From IMG/VR virus record IMGVR_UViG_3300028453_000018, positions 1-14,007 of that record: a stretch of 14,007 nt of DNA. One strand, written 5' to 3'. The stretch's first letter is position 1. Every line of letters begins with the position of its first letter. The translations under genes and the position numbers were made by a program. Positions 7,786-13,525 of the stretch are shown one piece after another. Below the pieces are notes generated by a model, which worked only from the letters and a program-made list of their open reading frames with translations, was not told the origin of the DNA and made no database searches. The DNA comes from a virus (Duplodnaviria > Heunggongvirae > Uroviricota > Caudoviricetes).

Positions 7786-8958
7786 ATGGCTCAGGATTAC
7801 CACCACGGGGTGCGCGTTGTTGAAGTCAACGAAGGCACCCGATCCATTACCACGGTGAGCACCGCCATCGTGGGCATGGTCTGCACGGGCGATGATGCCG
7901 ATGCAAAAATGTTTCCTCTTAATAAACCCGTGCTGATCACTGATGTACTGACCGCCAGCGGTAAAGCGGGTGAGTCCGGCACGCTGGCCCGTTCGCTGGA
8001 TGCCATCGCTGACCAGGCAAAACCCGTGACCGTTGTTGTGCGTGTGCCGCAGGGTGAAACGGAAGAAGAAACCACGACTAATATCATCGGCGCAGTGACC
8101 GCTGAAGGTAAAAAAACAGGTATGAAAGCCCTGTTATCTGCCCAGACACAGCTCGGCGTTAAACCGCGCATTCTCGGCGTGCCAGGTCACGATAACAAAG
8201 CCGTTGCGACTGAGTTGCTGAGCGTGGCGCAAAGCCTGCGTGGGTTTGCTTACCTGTCAGCGTATGGCTGCAAGACGGTACAGGAGGCGATCACTTACCG
8301 TGAAAACTTCAGCCAGCGCGAAGGGATGCTGATCTGGCCTGACTTTACTGGCTGGGACACGGTGCTGAATGCCGAAGCAACGGCATATGCCACCGCCCGT
8401 GCGCTCGGTCTGCGCGCCAAAATTGATGAGCAGACGGGGTGGCACAAGAGCCTGTCCAACGTAGGTGTGAACGGTGTCACCGGAATTTCTGCTGATGTGT
8501 TCTGGGATTTGCAGGACCCGGCAACCGATGCAGGTCTGCTGAACCAGAACGACGTCACCACACTTGTGCGTAAAGACGGCTTCCGCTTCTGGGGTTCCCG
8601 CTGCCTGAGTGATGACCCGCTCTTTGCCTTCGAAAACTACACCCGCACGGCGCAGGTGCTGATGGACACGATGGCAGAAGCACACATGTGGGCGGTGGAT
8701 AAACCTCTTAACCCGTCGCTGGCGCGCGACATTATCGAAGGTATCCGCGCCAAAATGCGCAGCCTGGTCAGTCAGGGGTATCTCATTGGTGGTGATTGCT
8801 GGCTGGACGAGTCGGTGAACGACAAAGACACGCTGAAAGCCGGAAAACTCACCATCGACTACGACTACACGCCAGTGCCGCCACTTGAAAACCTGATGCT
8901 GCGTCAGCGCATCACCGATCAGTACCTGGTGAATTTCGCCAGCCAGGTCAGCGCGTAA
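7786..8958 (+). CDS. FI: Contractile tail sheath protein FI
   Basis: 390 aa (P2 FI is about 396 aa); follows a terminator, promoter motif and SD; position before the tube gene. Confidence 0.95.
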
Positions 8959-8967
8959 GGGGACAAC

Positions 8968-9483
8968 ATGGCTTTACCACGCAAATTAAAACACCTGAAC
9001 CTGTTTAACGACGGGAACAACTGGCAGGGGATCGTTGAATCGCTGACGCTGCCGAAATTCACCCGCAAATATGAGAAATATCGCGGCGGCGGAATGCCGG
9101 GTGCAGTGGATGTGGATCTGGGGCTTGATGACAGTGCGCTGGACACAGAATTTTCCATTGGTGGTACTGAACTGCTGCTGTTTAAGCAGATGGGCAAAGC
9201 CACTGTGGATGGCATCCAGCTGCGCTTTACCGGCTCTATCCAGCGTGACGATACCGGGGAAGTGCAGGCCGTGGAGCTTGTGGTGCGTGGTCGTCACAAA
9301 GAAGTGGATTCCGGCGAGTGGAAGACGGGCGAAAGTAACACCACCAAAGTGACCAGTACCAACAGCTACGCGAAGCTGACCATCAATGGTGAGGTGCTCT
9401 ATGAAGTGGACCTTATCAACATGGTGGAAATTGTGGACGGAGTGGACCTGATGGAAGCGCACCGCAACGCCCTTGGCCTCTGA
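8968..9483 (+). CDS. FII: Tail tube protein FII
   Basis: 171 aa (P2 FII is about 172 aa), 9 nt after the sheath stop, with SD GGGGACAAC. Confidence 0.95.
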   Translation: MALPRKLKHLNLFNDGNNWQGIVESLTLPKFTRKYEKYRGGGMPGAVDVDLGLDDSALDTEFSIGGTELLLFKQMGKATVDGIQLRFTGSIQRDDTGEVQAVELVVRGRHKEVDSGEWKTGESNTTKVTSTNSYAKLTINGEVLYEVDLINMVEIVDGVDLMEAHRNALGL

Positions 9484-9537
9484 AGTATCTGAACGGCGCG
9501 GGATTCCGCGCCAGAACCCAATTTACAGGACAACAAA

Positions 9538-9840
9538 ATGAGCGATAAGCAGACTGAAAAGACCATTCAACTGGATACCCCCATCATGCGCGGTAAAACA
9601 GAAATTACCGAAATTGTGTTGCGTAAACCGCAGTCCGGTGCGCTGCGTGGCACACGCCTGCAGGCCATTATGGATATGGATGTGAACGCGATGATGACTG
9701 TGATCCCCCGCATCTCCAGTCCGGCACTGACTGCACAGGAAATCGCAGAGATGGACCCGGCAGATCTCACTGCCATGTCGGTTGAGGTTGTCACTTTTTT
9801 GTTGAAGAAGTCGGTGCTTGCCGGTTTACCGACAGCCTGA
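9538..9840 (+). CDS. E: Tail assembly chaperone E
   Basis: 100-aa ORF between the tube and tape measure genes; it contains the slippery T6G heptamer at 9795-9801 near its 3' end. Confidence 0.85.
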   Translation: MSDKQTEKTIQLDTPIMRGKTEITEIVLRKPQSGALRGTRLQAIMDMDVNAMMTVIPRISSPALTAQEIAEMDPADLTAMSVEVVTFLLKKSVLAGLPTA

Positions 9841-9974
9841 CGGTTGACGATCTGGTGGCAGATATCGCCACCATTTTTCACTGGCCGCCATCCGTTACTG
9901 ACGTTATGCCGCTGACCGAAGTGCTGGAATGGCGGTATAAAGCGATTCAGAGAAGCGGGGCCAACGATGAGTGA
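9538..9974 (+). CDS. E': Tail assembly chaperone E' (E+E' fusion made by a programmed -1 ribosomal frameshift at 9795-9801)
   Basis: The slippery sequence T TTT TTG lies in the E zero frame at 9795-9801. The -1 frame is open from 9801 for 57 codons (VEEVGACRFTDSLTVDDLVADIATIFHWPPSVTDVMPLTEVLEWRYKAIQRSGANDE) and ends at TGA 9972-9974, overlapping the T start codon at 9967. The predicted product is about 145 aa (P2 E+E' is about 142 aa). Confidence 0.7.
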
Positions 9975-12726
9975 TAACAACCTGCGGCTGCAGGTCATTC
10001 TTAATGCGGTTGACAAACTCACCCGCCCATTCCGTGCTGCACAGGCCAGTTCGAAAGAGCTGGCTGGCGCAATCAGAAACTCCCGTGACGCATTAAAGCA
10101 ACTCAATCAGGCGGGTAACAGCCTGGAAAAATTTCGCAAGCTGCAGGCCGATAACAAGAAGTTAGGCGACAGGCTGAACTATGCCAGACAGAAGGCTAAT
10201 TTGCTTAGCTCTGAGCTGGAGGCGATGGAACAACCATCACAACGGCACCTTGTGGCTTTAGGTCGGCAAACGCTGGCAGTCCAACGCCTGGAAGAACAAC
10301 AAAAATATTTGCAGAAGCAAACGGCGCTTGTGCGTGCAGAACTGTACCGGGCGGGAATTTCTGCGAAAGATGATGCGGGAGCAACTGCCCGTTTAGCCCG
10401 TGAAACATCACGTTATAACCAGGAATTGTCGAAACAGGAGGCGCGGCTGAAGCGACTGGGTGAAGCTCAGCGCAGGATGAATGCGGCGCGTGCCAGTTAT
10501 GCCCGTTCGCTGGAGGTGCGCGATCGTATTGCAGGTGCCGGAGCCACTACCACGGCTGCAGGTCTGGCAATGGGGACGCCAGTGATGGCGGCAGTAAAAA
10601 GCTATACCAGCATGGAAGATGCCATGAAAGGTGTGGCAAAGCAGGTCAATGGTCTGCGTGACGATAATGGCAACCGCACTGCACGTTTTTATGAAATGCA
10701 GGATGCCATCAAGGCTGCCAGCGAACAGTTGCCGATGGAAAAAGGTGCGGTGGACTTCGCTGCACTGGTTGAAGGTGGTGCGCGCATGAACGTCGCAAAC
10801 CCTGACGACAGCTGGGAAGACCAGAAACGTGATCTGCTGGCCTTCGCCAGCACGGCGGCAAAGGCGGCAACAGCCTTTGAGCTGCCAGCGGATGAACTGT
10901 CAGAAAGTCTGGGAAAAATCGCCCAGCTCTACAAAATCCCTACCCGCAATATTGAACAGCTCGGTGATGCGCTGAACTATCTGGATGATAACGCCATGTC
11001 GAAAGGGGCAGACATCATTGATGTGATGCAACGCCTGGGCGGTGTGGCTGATCGTCTGGATTATCGTAAAGCGGCGGCGCTGGGTTCCACCTTCCTGACA
11101 CTGGGTGCTGCGCCGGAGGTTGCAGCCAGTGCAGCAAACGCGATGGTGCGTGAGTTGTCCATTGCCACCATGCAAAGCAAGAGTTTCTTTGAAGGGATGA
11201 ATCTGCTGAAACTCAATCCTGAAGTGATTGAAAAGCAGATGACGAAGGATGCGATGGGAACCATCCAGCGCGTGCTGGAGAAGGTGAACGCACTGCCGCA
11301 GGACAAGCGTCTGTCTGCCATGACCATGTTGTTTGGTAAAGAGTTTGGTGATGACGCGGCGAAACTGGCAAACAACCTGCCGGAACTGCAGCGCCAGCTA
11401 AAACTGACAGCGGGCAATGATGCGCTCGGTTCCATGCAGAAAGAATCCGACATCAACAAAGACTCACTTTCTGCTCAGTGGTTGCTGGTCAAAACCGGAG
11501 CGCAGAACACCTTCAGCAGCCTGGGTGAAACGCTGCGCCAGCCGCTGATGGATATTCTGTACACGGTGAAAAGCATCACGGGAGCGTTGCGCCGCTGGAT
11601 GGAAGCTAACCCGGAACTGACAGGCACACTGATGAAAGTAGCGGCTGTTGTGGCTGCGGTTACCGTAGGCCTCGGCACCTTAGCGGTGGCGCTGGCTGCA
11701 GTGCTGGGGCCGCTGGCAGTCATCCGTCTGGGATTCTCTGTGCTGGGTATCAAAACGTTACCTTCCGTTACGGCAGCAGTAACACGAACCAGCAGCGCGT
11801 TGTCCTGGTTAGCTGGCGCTCCACTGGCACTGCTGCGACGCGGGCTTGCTTCATCGGGCAACGCAGCGGGTTTACTTACTGCGCCGTTGTCGTCTTTGCG
11901 CCGCACGGCATCACTGACGGGGAATGTCCTGAAAACTGTAGCAGGTGTGCCGGTTGCACTGTTGCGGTCTGGATTATCCGGTTTACGTGCTGTTGCTGTG
12001 ATGTTTATGAATCCTCTGGCGGTACTGCGCGGTGGACTGTCTGCCGCAGGCGCGGTGCTGCGAGTACTGGCATCCGGTCCGCTGGCGATGCTGCGCGTTG
12101 CCCTGTATGCCATATCTGGTCTGTTAGGTGCTCTGCTCAGTCCGATAGGTCTTGTGGTTACTGCACTGGCGGGTGTGGCGCTGGTTGTCTGGAAATACTG
12201 GCAACCCATCACCGCATTTCTCGGTGGCGTGGTGGAAGGATTCAAAGCGTCGACAGGTCCCATCAGTGCTGCATTCGAACCACTTAAGCCTGTGTTTCAG
12301 TGGATTGGCGACAAAGTGCAGGCGTTGTGGGGTTGGTTTACTGATCTGCTGACGCCTGTTAAGTCGACCTCTGCTGAACTGCAGAGCGCAGCGGCAATGG
12401 GGCGACGATTCGGGGAGGCTCTGGCGGAGGGGCTGAATATGGTCATGCATCCGCTGGACTCCCTGAAATCCGGTGTTTCCTGGTTGCTGGATAAACTCGG
12501 CATTGTCAGTAAAGAAGCTGCAAAGGCGAAACTGCCGGAAAGCGTGACGCGTCAGCAACCTGCGACGGTGAATGCAGACGGTAAAGTGATGATGCCATCG
12601 GGTGGTTTTCCATCATGGGGATATGGCTTTGCGGGGATGTATGACAGCGGCGGCTATATCCCGCGCGGGCAGTTTGGCATCGTCGGTGAAAACGGGCCGG
12701 AAATTGTTAACGGCCGGCAAATGTGA
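9967..12726 (+). CDS. T: Tail tape measure protein T, N-terminal 919 codons, ending at an apparently premature in-frame TGA
   Basis: Long ORF with an alpha-helical, Q/A/R/E-rich N-terminal half and a hydrophobic repeat region (PLALLRRGL, PVALLRSGL, PLAVLRGGL, PLAMLRVAL), sitting between E' and U as in P2. The frame stops at 12724-12726, but the coding signal continues in the -1 frame. Confidence 0.85.
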   Translation: MSDNNLRLQVILNAVDKLTRPFRAAQASSKELAGAIRNSRDALKQLNQAGNSLEKFRKLQADNKKLGDRLNYARQKANLLSSELEAMEQPSQRHLVALGRQTLAVQRLEEQQKYLQKQTALVRAELYRAGISAKDDAGATARLARETSRYNQELSKQEARLKRLGEAQRRMNAARASYARSLEVRDRIAGAGATTTAAGLAMGTPVMAAVKSYTSMEDAMKGVAKQVNGLRDDNGNRTARFYEMQDAIKAASEQLPMEKGAVDFAALVEGGARMNVANPDDSWEDQKRDLLAFASTAAKAATAFELPADELSESLGKIAQLYKIPTRNIEQLGDALNYLDDNAMSKGADIIDVMQRLGGVADRLDYRKAAALGSTFLTLGAAPEVAASAANAMVRELSIATMQSKSFFEGMNLLKLNPEVIEKQMTKDAMGTIQRVLEKVNALPQDKRLSAMTMLFGKEFGDDAAKLANNLPELQRQLKLTAGNDALGSMQKESDINKDSLSAQWLLVKTGAQNTFSSLGETLRQPLMDILYTVKSITGALRRWMEANPELTGTLMKVAAVVAAVTVGLGTLAVALAAVLGPLAVIRLGFSVLGIKTLPSVTAAVTRTSSALSWLAGAPLALLRRGLASSGNAAGLLTAPLSSLRRTASLTGNVLKTVAGVPVALLRSGLSGLRAVAVMFMNPLAVLRGGLSAAGAVLRVLASGPLAMLRVALYAISGLLGALLSPIGLVVTALAGVALVVWKYWQPITAFLGGVVEGFKASTGPISAAFEPLKPVFQWIGDKVQALWGWFTDLLTPVKSTSAELQSAAAMGRRFGEALAEGLNMVMHPLDSLKSGVSWLLDKLGIVSKEAAKAKLPESVTRQQPATVNADGKVMMPSGGFPSWGYGFAGMYDSGGYIPRGQFGIVGENGPEIVNGRQM

Positions 12727-13043
12727 CCAGCCGGAGAAATACAGCTGCACTGGCTGCCGTTGTTGCCGGAATGATGGGCGTTGCTGCCGCGCCAGCAGAG
12801 CTTCCACCGTTGCACCCTTTGGCACTTCCCGCGAAAGGTGGAGAAGCGATGGTGAGTCGCGCAGCCACTGTGCCGCTCGTTCAACGGATTGAGGCACCGA
12901 CGCAGATCATCATTCAGACGCAGCCAGGACAAAGTGCGCAGGATATTGCGCGGGAGGTGGCACGCCAGCTTGATGAACGTGAACGCAGGCTGAAGGCAAA
13001 AGCCAGGAGTAACTACAGCGATCAGGGGGGATACGACGCATGA
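12711..13043 (+). CDS. T: Probable C-terminal segment of tape measure protein T in the -1 frame (frameshifted or pseudogenised 3' end)
   Basis: This frame is open from 12711, just after a TAA at 12708-12710, to TGA 13041-13043, and its stop overlaps the U start codon (ATGA at 13040-13043) in the way P2 junctions do. The T frame and this frame overlap only across 12711-12723. Confidence 0.6.
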   Translation, partial: RPANVTSRRNTAALAAVVAGMMGVAAAPAELPPLHPLALPAKGGEAMVSRAATVPLVQRIEAPTQIIIQTQPGQSAQDIAREVARQLDERERRLKAKARSNYSDQGGYDA

Positions 13044-13525
13044 TGATGGTGCTGGGATTGTACGTGTTTATGCTGCGCACCGTTCCGTATCAGGAACTGC
13101 AGTATCAACGCAGCTGGCGACATGCGGCAAACAGTCGGGTAAACCGACGTCCGTCCACGCAATTTCTGGGACCGGAAAACGACATGCTGACGCTTTCCGG
13201 TGTTCTTATGCCGGAGATAACAGGCGGCAGGCTGTCGTTGCTGGCACTGGAGCAGATGGCAGAACAGGGGAAAGCATGGCCCCTGATTGAAGGCAGCGGC
13301 ACGATTTACGGCATGTATGTGATTGAGGGACTGAATCAGACTAAAACGGAGTTTTTCCGCGACGGTATGCCGCGCCGGATTGAGTTCACCCTGTCGCTCA
13401 AACGAGTCGATGAATCCCTGTCCGATATGTTCGGTGATCTCAGTGCGCAACTGAATAATCTGCAGGACACGGCAACGTCTGCCTTAAGCGATATCAGTAA
13501 AACGGTGGGAGGGCTGCTGTCGTGA
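13040..13525 (+). CDS. U: Tail protein U (P2 gpU-like)
   Basis: 161 aa (P2 gpU is about 159 aa); position after T; stop overlaps the GTG of the next gene. Confidence 0.9.
   Translation: MMMVLGLYVFMLRTVPYQELQYQRSWRHAANSRVNRRPSTQFLGPENDMLTLSGVLMPEITGGRLSLLALEQMAEQGKAWPLIEGSGTIYGMYVIEGLNQTKTEFFRDGMPRRIEFTLSLKRVDESLSDMFGDLSAQLNNLQDTATSALSDISKTVGGLLS

What the first reader, a model, noticed from the sequence alone, without database searches (positions are those of the whole stretch)
9538..9974. Conserved programmed -1 frameshift (T6G slippery site) producing E and E' tail chaperones
The heptamer T TTT TTG at 9795-9801 lies in the E zero frame 13 codons before the E stop. Slipping -1 there opens a 57-codon extension that terminates 5 nt after the T start codon. 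This reproduces the P2 E/E' arrangement (functionally analogous to lambda G/GT), in which a fixed ratio of the two chaperones is needed for tail assembly. Without the frameshift, the 127 nt between E and T would have no assigned coding function.
Basis: partly seen in the sequence, partly recalled or inferred. Interest (0 to 1): 0.45.

Follow-up and report, generated by a model that had tools for sequence, protein, structure and literature searches.

The report
Known P2-type tail chaperone frameshift
This is the well-known programmed -1 ribosomal frameshift that P2-like phages use to make two tail-assembly chaperones (E and E+E') from one start codon, found here in an ordinary enterobacterial P2-like prophage, so it is real but not new.

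Summary
E is 9538-9840. T TTT TTG sits in the E zero frame at 9795-9801. The -1 frame is open from 9786 to a TGA at 9972-9974, which overlaps the tape-measure (T) start at 9967. The window is a P2-like late operon (sheath, tube, E, E', T, U). E matches Pfam Phage_TAC_7 and the -1 extension matches Phage_P2_GpE. The fused product aligns without gaps across the junction to P2 gpE+E' (48% identity). P2, L-413C, PsP3, KS5 and Smp131 records annotate the same -1 join, at the same T6G heptamer in the first four and at T TTT TTT in Smp131. Of 174 homologous loci, 173 keep an in-frame slippery heptamer at this codon. The most variable codon position moves to the -1 frame after the E stop. No convincing downstream stimulatory structure was found. 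Two corrections apply: the E-to-T gap is 126 nt, not 127. The deposited P2 product keeps Leu at the junction, so the expected peptide is ...VTFL/VEEVGA..., not ...VTFF.... Side notes: a synonymously constrained GAGG(T) lies 6-7 nt upstream of the heptamer, and a 1-nt deletion breaks gene T in this copy. Verdict: interpretation supported, already known, low interest.

The parts
9538..9840 (+). Gene E (zero frame), 100 aa tail assembly chaperone
   Evidence: ORF. Pfam PF10109 Phage_TAC_7 at E=2.4e-18; phrog_103 tail protein at 7.9e-44. The exact protein occurs on >=1000 contigs named 'phage tail assembly protein [Escherichia coli]'.
9795..9801 (+). Slippery heptamer T TTT TTG (X XXY YYZ in the E zero frame)
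   Evidence: It is the same heptamer at the same alignment position as the annotated P2 -1 frameshift site. Conservation: 74 T6G + 6 T6A of 80 IMG/VR loci; 72 T6G + 4 T6A + 1 T7 of 78 species-representative genomes.
9801..9974 (+). E' extension in the -1 frame (57 sense codons + TGA). The full E+E' product is join(9538..9801, 9801..9974), 145 aa.
   Evidence: Pfam PF06528 Phage_P2_GpE at 4e-19; phrog_1756 at 1.8e-22. The most variable codon position moves to -1 frame position 3 beyond the E stop.
9967..12726 (+). Tape measure gene T. Its ATG overlaps the E' stop (ATGAGTGA). It is truncated in this copy by a 1-nt deletion at 12714-12715.
   Evidence: Pfam PF10145. The ATGAGTGA overlap is kept in nearly all homologues. 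Deletion shown against CP019275.
8968..9483 (+). Tail tube gene FII (upstream context)
   Evidence: Pfam PF04985 at 8.8e-60.
7786..8958 (+). Tail sheath gene FI (upstream context)
   Evidence: Pfam PF04984, PF17482 and PF22671.
9784..9788 (+). Shine-Dalgarno-like GAGGT 6 nt 5' of the heptamer (candidate 5' stimulator; inferred only)
   Evidence: The GAG/AAG codon is kept in 152 of 156 distinct sequences, although Glu is GAA 69% elsewhere in the same 60 codons. Its wobble diversity is 0.05 against a mean of 0.47.
9855..9974 (+). Stand-alone 39-aa 'GpE family phage tail protein' ORF as modelled by PGAP in relatives (rival gene model; probably an artefact)
   Evidence: Annotated this way in CP019275, RE-2010 and ST340-VIM1phi10.2. 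The exact 39-aa protein is on 994 contigs. The start codon is absent at this position in 10 of 135 distinct homologues.
9853..9878 (+). Hairpin TGGTGGC-AGATATC-GCCACCA followed by TTTTT, inside E', 52 nt 3' of the heptamer
   Evidence: Terminator-like scan hit. It is the only consensus helix RNAalifold found. It lies too far downstream to be a canonical frameshift stimulator.

Best explanation
This is the E/E+E' tail-assembly-chaperone recoding site of a P2-like (Fels-2/RE-2010-type) enterobacterial prophage. Most ribosomes translating E from ATG 9538 terminate at TGA 9838 and produce gpE (100 aa). A minority slip back one nucleotide on T TTT TTG (9795-9801). In the tandem-slippage model, tRNA-Phe re-pairs from UUU to UUU and tRNA-Leu from UUG to UUU. 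Those ribosomes continue in the -1 frame from G9801 for 57 codons and stop at TGA 9972-9974, just inside the tape-measure gene. The product is gpE+E' (145 aa, junction ...VTFL-VEEVGA...). By analogy with lambda gpG/gpGT, the shared E part would bind the tape measure protein gpT, and the E' domain would recruit tail tube subunits. The frameshift efficiency would then fix the ratio of the two chaperones, and neither would end up in the virion. Shown here: the sequence anatomy, the homology, the conservation and the coding constraint in the -1 frame. Inferred: that slippage actually occurs, its efficiency (about 10% in P2, recalled from Christie et al. 2002), and the chaperone mechanism.
For: Anatomy at the exact coordinates. 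The gene order is sheath, tube, E, E', tape measure, U, with Pfam matches PF04984, PF04985, PF10109, PF06528, PF10145 and PF06995. The fused product is 48% identical to P2 gpE+E' over 139 aa with no gap across the junction, and the Phe codons of the heptamer form invariant alignment columns in 11 diverse phages. P2 (AF063097) carries an E+E' joined CDS and a misc_feature 'site of -1 translational frameshift' next to the same TTTTTTG. L-413C, PsP3, KS5 and Smp131 are annotated likewise. An in-frame slippery heptamer sits at the homologous codon in all 16 phage records inspected. It is T6G in 11; the others are T7, T6C, G GGA AAG, A AAT TTT and C CCT TTC. It is also present in 80 of 80 IMG/VR loci and 77 of 78 species-representative genomes from Escherichia to Xenorhabdus, Photorhabdus and Amphritea. 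Codon-phase diversity is 0.081/0.043/0.323 upstream of the slip. Beyond the E stop it is 0.026/0.183/0.068, so the wobble position moves to -1 frame position 3. Zero-frame tails differ in length and sequence between lineages, whereas the -1 frame is conserved from the slip site onward. Nine of 135 distinct homologues have no ATG/GTG/TTG in the -1 frame between the slip site and the conserved ADIA motif. Literature: the P2 -1 frameshift at TTTTTTG yields E (91 aa) and E+E' (142 aa) and is conserved in KS5, KS14 and KL3 (PMC3091744, citing Christie 2002 and Xu 2004). The lambda G/GT mechanism is described in PMC5009743.
Against: There is no expression data for this sequence. No convincing 3' stimulatory structure exists. 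The 60 nt after the heptamer fold no better than shuffles (z=-0.06). The local hairpin 9810-9833 shows no excess covariation. Rfam finds nothing. P2 is likewise reported to lack such a structure (PMC3091744), so this is not evidence against membership. UUG-to-UUU re-pairing of tRNA-Leu is imperfect at the third position. Automated annotation of close relatives models E' as a separate 39-aa ORF. The tape-measure gene is broken in this copy, so the prophage may be defective and the site may no longer be in use here.
Confidence: 0.94

Rival explanations
1. E' is an independent small gene. A 39-aa 'GpE family phage tail protein' initiates at GTG 9855 and no frameshift is involved.
For: PGAP-type annotations of close relatives model it this way. 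The exact 39-aa protein is recorded on 994 contigs. A GTG or ATG sits at the aligned codon in 125 of 135 distinct homologues. The Pfam PF06528 model begins at this residue.
Against: The 18 -1-frame codons between the slip site and GTG 9855 are conserved at protein level with P2 (FxVxExGAxxFxxxLxVDDL). The start codon is replaced by GTA, TGG or GCC in 10 of 135 homologues, and 9 have no canonical start anywhere upstream of the conserved motif. No GGAG/GAGG/AGGA lies in the 17 nt before 9855. The heptamer is conserved at a fixed codon over 46-96% protein identity. In P2, E' is reported to be translated as a -1 extension of E (PMC3091744, citing Christie 2002).
Confidence: 0.03
2. The long product arises from transcriptional slippage. 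RNA polymerase adds one extra U in the U6 run, and standard translation of that mRNA subpopulation gives E+E' with an ...FF-V... junction.
For: The site is a homopolymer run of six. DNA variants with T7 give an in-frame fusion with exactly the FFV junction, in Logan contig L180 and in E. coli protein QTN08932.1. Sequence analysis alone cannot separate the two routes.
Against: From my own knowledge, runs of six T are short for efficient bacterial RNA polymerase slippage, which typically needs 8-9 or more. Distant relatives use non-homopolymeric X XXY YYZ heptamers at the same place: G GGA AAG, A AAT TTT and C CCT TTC. Those heptamers fit tRNA re-pairing and do not fit polymerase stuttering. The heptamer is always phased X XXY YYZ relative to the zero frame, which transcriptional slippage would not require.
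Confidence: 0.03

Closest known systems
Bacteriophage P2 gpE / gpE+E' (FETUD operon; UniProt O64312 TAPFS_BPP2; Christie et al. 2002, J Bacteriol 184:6522, as cited in PMC3091744)
   Same: Same T TTT TTG heptamer at the homologous codon. Same -1 direction. Same position between tube gene FII and tape measure gene T. Same E' stop overlapping the T start. The fused product is collinear at 48% identity. Neither has an evident 3' stimulatory structure (PMC3091744).
   Different: E is 100 aa here against 91 aa in P2, and the fusion is 145 aa against 142 aa. The zero-frame tail after the slip is 12 codons here against 6 in P2 and is unrelated in sequence. This phage belongs to the Fels-2/RE-2010-like lineage rather than Peduovirus.
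Salmonella phage RE-2010 / Klebsiella Kp48xx prophages / E. coli p13P477T-2 (Felsduovirus-like Peduoviridae)
   Same: The E-E'-T region is 88-99% identical at protein level and ~97% at DNA level, with an identical heptamer and frame layout.
   Different: Those records annotate E and a separate 39-aa ORF rather than a joined E+E' CDS. Their tape measure gene is intact; it is 1025 aa in CP019275.
Phage lambda gpG / gpGT tail assembly chaperones (Levin et al. 1993; Xu et al. 2004, 2013, 2014; reviewed in PMC5009743)
   Same: [quoted passage not shown] A fixed ratio is needed for tail assembly.
   Different: No detectable sequence similarity: Pfam returns only PF10109 and PF06528. The heptamer is G GGA AAG in lambda. 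Lambda has a non-contractile tail. This is functional analogy, not family membership.
E. coli dnaX tau/gamma -1 frameshift (A AAA AAG with an upstream Shine-Dalgarno-like stimulator and a downstream hairpin)
   Same: A homopolymer-type X XXX XXG heptamer, and an SD-like element upstream of it (GAGGT at 9784-9788) that shows synonymous-site constraint.
   Different: The SD-like element lies 6-7 nt from the heptamer, outside the 9-14 nt reported for -1 stimulation (PMC5009743). No downstream hairpin is supported. The gene and its function are unrelated.

Membership tests
P2-family E / E+E' programmed -1 frameshift | The upstream ORF is a gpE-type tail assembly chaperone (Pfam PF10109 Phage_TAC_7) | tested here: met
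   E=2.4e-18, 66.4 bits against a cutoff of 25, covering residues 9-88.
P2-family E / E+E' programmed -1 frameshift | The -1 frame extension carries the E' domain (Pfam PF06528 Phage_P2_GpE) | tested here: met
   E=4e-19, 68.2 bits against a cutoff of 23, covering the full 37-position model.
P2-family E / E+E' programmed -1 frameshift | An X XXY YYZ slippery heptamer (T TTT TTG in P2) in the zero frame near the 3' end of E, inside the E/E' overlap | tested here: met
   acT TTT TTG at 9795-9801. The -1 frame opens at 9786. The position is homologous to the annotated P2 site.
P2-family E / E+E' programmed -1 frameshift | The fused product is collinear with P2 gpE+E' across the junction | tested here: met
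   BLASTP: 67 of 139 identical, 0 gaps, E=2e-50. Multiple alignment.
P2-family E / E+E' programmed -1 frameshift | Located between the tail tube gene (FII) and the tape measure gene (T), with the E' stop overlapping the T start | tested here: met
   FII 8968-9483, E 9538-9840, E' to 9974, T from 9967. The ATGAGTGA overlap is conserved.
P2-family E / E+E' programmed -1 frameshift | The heptamer and the open -1 frame are conserved in homologues, with coding constraint in the -1 frame | tested here: met
   173 of 174 loci. Codon-phase switch.
P2-family E / E+E' programmed -1 frameshift | E' lacks its own translation initiation signals | tested here: inconclusive
   No SD motif lies before GTG 9855, and 9-10 of 135 homologues lack any start codon. 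However, most homologues do have a GTG or ATG at that codon.
P2-family E / E+E' programmed -1 frameshift | The frameshifted fusion protein is actually produced (about 10% in P2), and both products are essential | not testable with these tools
   This needs reporter fusions, mass spectrometry or genetics. Known only for P2 (PMC3091744, citing Christie 2002; the efficiency is recalled from memory).
Lambda gpG/gpGT family (sequence membership) | Detectable sequence similarity to lambda G/GT chaperone families | tested here: not met
   A Pfam scan at E<=0.01 returned only PF10109 and PF06528. A profile search of the PDB found no related chain. It works like G/GT but is not a sequence member.
dnaX-type SD-stimulated -1 frameshift | An SD-like element 9-14 nt 5' of the shift site | tested here: not met
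   GAGG(T) at 9784-9788 lies 6-7 nt from the heptamer. The spacing criterion is from PMC5009743.
Canonical -1 PRF with a 3' stimulatory structure | A stable, conserved hairpin or pseudoknot starting 5-9 nt after the heptamer | tested here: not met
   z=-0.06 for the 60 nt downstream. RNAalifold finds no helix there. The named hairpin 9810-9833 shows no excess covariation. No Rfam hit.

The most novel reading that the evidence does not exclude
The P2-family E/E' frameshift may have a 5' stimulator that is not mentioned in the two papers I read on this point (PMC3091744, PMC5009743). It would be a Shine-Dalgarno-like GAGG(U) (AAGG(U) in P2) 6-7 nt upstream of T TTT TTG, closer than the 9-14 nt range described for -1 frameshifting. 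The element is held by selection on a synonymous site. The codon is GAG/AAG in 152 of 156 distinct sequences, whereas Glu codons nearby are 69% GAA. The wobble diversity at that codon is 0.05 against a mean of 0.47.
Probability: 0.2. Interest if true: 0.35.

Novelty: already known. Interest (0 to 1): 0.07.

Why it matters
It matters mainly for annotation. Automated pipelines split this locus into E plus a free-standing 39-aa 'GpE family' ORF, which is recorded on about a thousand contigs. The biologically supported model is a joined E+E' CDS with ribosomal slippage at 9801. It adds nothing new about recoding or tail assembly. The constrained SD-like motif upstream of the heptamer is the only element that might repay a small experiment.

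Tried and rejected
**Downstream stimulatory structure**
- Folding 60-100 nt after the heptamer gave z=-0.06 and -1.29.
- RNAalifold on 50 distinct homologues found only a 5-bp helix 54 nt downstream.
- The candidate hairpin 9810-9815/9828-9833 shows no excess of compensatory change: covariation score 0.084 against 0.075 in shuffles. I rejected it as a conserved stimulator.

**Database searches**
- Rfam at E<=1 on 9400-10200 returned nothing.
- NCBIfam had no model hit for E, E' or the fusion.
- A PDB profile search found no solved relative; the best E-value was 0.73.

**Literature**
- Christie 2002 (PMC135442) and Xu 2013/2014 (PMC3762263, PMC3907469) are not held. Their content is cited second-hand or from memory.

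**Rejected readings**
- Independent initiation of E' was rejected on conservation upstream of the putative start and on homologues without a start codon.
- Chance occurrence was rejected on base rate and conservation.
- I considered whether the T-gene break at 12714 could be a second programmed shift. I rejected this because relatives have an intact single ORF there.

**Not done**
- I ran no structure prediction, because family membership was already decisive at sequence level.

Full report
**Observation**

- An ATG-initiated ORF at 9538-9840 encodes 100 aa.
- TTTTTTG occupies 9795-9801 and is phased acT TTT TTG in that ORF. The TTG codon lies 13 codons before the TGA at 9838.
- The -1 frame is closed by a TGA at 9783-9785 and is open from 9786 to a TGA at 9972-9974.
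- A slip on the heptamer therefore adds 57 codons.
- The next gene starts at ATG 9967, giving the overlap ATGAGTGA.

This is the only T6G on either strand of the window. In-frame X XXY YYZ heptamers are rare in the window's genes: 10 in 4193 codon positions. This one alone combines a long -1 continuation with a position 12 codons from the end of its gene. One figure needs a small correction: the gap from the E stop to the T start is 126 nt, not 127.

**What the locus is**

The window is a P2-like late and tail operon. Pfam identifies these genes:
- tail sheath, 7786-8958
- tail tube FII, 8968-9483
- E, as Phage_TAC_7 (PF10109, 2.4e-18)
- the -1 extension, as Phage_P2_GpE (PF06528, 4e-19)
- tape measure, 9967 onward (PF10145)
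- gpU, 13040-13525

PHROGs adds baseplate V/W/J/I, tail fibre and fibre-assembly genes upstream. At DNA level the window is 96-98% identical to Klebsiella prophage records (Kp48xx) and to an E. coli prophage-plasmid, and it is related to Salmonella phage RE-2010, a Felsduovirus. The exact E protein is on at least 1000 contigs, mostly named E. coli. About 1060 of 5426 complete E. coli genomes carry this prophage type.

**Comparison with P2**

The P2 record (AF063097) annotates gpE, a joined gpE+E' CDS and a 'site of -1 translational frameshift'. That site is adjacent to the same TTTTTTG at the homologous codon. L-413C, PsP3, KS5 and Smp131 carry equivalent joined CDSs. The conceptual fusion from the window aligns to P2 gpE+E' at 48% identity over 139 residues, with no gap across the junction. 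In an 11-phage alignment the two Phe columns at the slip site are invariant.

PMC3091744 states that in P2 the -1 frameshift occurs at TTTTTTG and produces E (91 aa) and E+E' (142 aa). It also reports that the site is conserved in Burkholderia P2-like phages and that no downstream hairpin is found in P2 or those phages. It cites Christie et al. 2002 and Xu et al. 2004.

**Conservation**

| Set | Loci analysed | Heptamer at the homologous codon |
|---|---|---|
| Phage records inspected individually | 16 | T6G in 11; T TTT TTT, T TTT TTC, G GGA AAG, A AAT TTT and C CCT TTC in one each |
| IMG/VR loci (57-96% protein identity) | 80 | T6G in 74; T6A in 6 |
| Species-representative genomes (46-93% identity; Escherichia, Citrobacter, Pantoea, Xenorhabdus, Photorhabdus, Amphritea and others) | 78 | T6G in 72; T6A in 4; T7 in 1; none in 1 |

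All 80 IMG/VR loci also have the -1 frame open to a stop at the start of T. The single exception among the genomes is a Candidatus Symbiopectobacterium locus. There an upstream deletion has fused E and E' in one frame. These sets are dominated by related lineages and are not independent samples. Even so, the non-homopolymeric heptamers in distant relatives show that the slippery property is conserved, not just the T run.

**Coding constraint**

Nucleotide diversity was measured by codon position among 64 distinct close homologues.
- Upstream of the slip it is 0.081/0.043/0.323, so the wobble is zero-frame position 3.
- Beyond the E stop it is 0.026/0.183/0.068, so the wobble is -1 frame position 3.
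- In the overlap, all three positions are constrained.

The zero-frame tail after the slip differs in length and sequence between lineages: 12 codons here and 6 in P2. The -1 frame, by contrast, is conserved from the slip site onward.

**Rival: independent E' gene**

PGAP-style annotations of relatives call a 39-aa 'GpE family phage tail protein' from the GTG that corresponds to 9855. That exact protein is on 994 contigs. Several observations count against this model.
- The 18 -1-frame codons upstream of the GTG are conserved with P2.
- No SD motif precedes the GTG.
- Ten of 135 distinct homologues have GTA, TGG or GCC at that codon.
- Nine of the 135 have no canonical start anywhere between the slip site and the conserved ADIA motif.

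I give this rival about 3%.

**Rival: transcriptional slippage**

Sequence analysis alone cannot exclude this. It is disfavoured because the heptamer is strictly phased in every homologue and because distant relatives use non-homopolymeric heptamers. I give this rival about 3%.

**Junction residue**

An exact-sequence look-up shows that the deposited P2 gpE+E' (AAD03292.1, O64312) reads ...GF-L-VAELG.... The zero-frame Leu is kept and the G is re-read. The FF version does exist in databases, but only where the DNA has a T7 run that fuses the frames. Those cases are the E. coli protein QTN08932.1 and Logan contig L180. Both peptides should be searched for in any proteomic test, because they distinguish the mechanisms.

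**Stimulatory elements**

No convincing 3' structure exists.
- The 60 nt after the heptamer fold no better than shuffles (z=-0.06).
- RNAalifold finds no helix within 50 nt.
- The window's local hairpin 9810-9833 lacks covariation support.
- Rfam finds nothing.

Upstream, a Shine-Dalgarno-like GAGGT (9784-9788; AAGGT in P2) lies 6 nt before the heptamer.
- Its Glu/Lys codon ends in G in 152 of 156 distinct sequences.
- Glu codons elsewhere in the same 60 codons are 69% GAA.
- Wobble diversity at this codon is 0.05 against a mean of 0.47, which places it third-lowest of 60 wobble positions.

This could be a 5' stimulator of the dnaX type. Its spacing is shorter than the 9-14 nt reported for -1 shifts (PMC5009743), and the sequences are phylogenetically related. 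I therefore treat it as a hypothesis with about 20% probability.

**Mechanism**

The anatomy, homology and constraint are shown by the results above. The following steps are inferred. Ribosomes translating E mostly terminate at 9838. A fraction slip -1 on U UUU UUG and extend to 9974, giving a fixed E to E+E' ratio. The fraction is about 10% in P2, recalled from Christie 2002. By analogy with lambda gpG/gpGT (PMC5009743), the common E part binds the tape measure protein and the E' domain recruits tube subunits. Both are released before the tail is finished. There is no sequence similarity to the lambda proteins, so this is analogy and not membership.

**Verdict**

This is an already known recoding site in a common prophage family. 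Interest is low.

Noticed in passing
window 12711-12726 (and ORF 12723-13043): The tape measure gene T is interrupted. The window has GGCCGG where CP019275 has GGCCCGG, a 1-nt deletion at 12714-12715. As a result T stops at TGA 12724-12726 (919 aa). Its last 106 codons survive as a separate ORF that matches the C-termini of tape-measure PHROG families. Relatives have a single 1025-aa T. The best-matching complete E. coli genomes all carry the extra base. This is either a defective prophage or a homopolymer sequencing error.
   Followed up: partly
window 9784-9788: A Shine-Dalgarno-like GAGGT lies 6 nt upstream of the slippery heptamer. The third base of its GAG codon is almost invariant across 156 distinct homologues, despite GAA-biased Glu usage nearby. 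It may be a 5' frameshift stimulator at non-canonical spacing.
   Followed up: partly
window 9853-9878: An intrinsic-terminator-like hairpin (TGGTGGC AGATATC GCCACCA, then TTTTT) sits inside the E' coding sequence, 52 nt after the heptamer. It is the only consensus helix in the alignment. One lineage (L090-L092, L095) keeps the stem through a double synonymous change (GTG/GCC to GTA/GCT). P2 lacks it. It could be chance from the conserved VADIAT-IFH peptide, or it could be an attenuator.
   Followed up: partly
L133:1183-1620 (Candidatus Symbiopectobacterium sp., NZ_PEHF01000066.1): E and E' are fused into one 139-aa in-frame ORF by a small deletion just upstream of the T6G run. Only the long form can be made, and the short E form is lost. 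This probably reflects prophage decay in a symbiont genome.
   Followed up: partly
L180:1501-1938 (Logan SRR23924970 contig); E. coli protein QTN08932.1: Variants with a T7 run instead of T6 put E and E' in one frame and give the ...FFV... junction. They are rare natural mutants or homopolymer read errors.
   Followed up: yes
window 9855-9974; L001:2056-2175; L004:1018-1137: Public automated annotation systematically splits this locus into E plus a stand-alone 39-aa 'GpE family phage tail protein', instead of a joined E+E' CDS. The Pfam PF06528 model (37 positions) appears to be built on that truncated form.
   Followed up: yes
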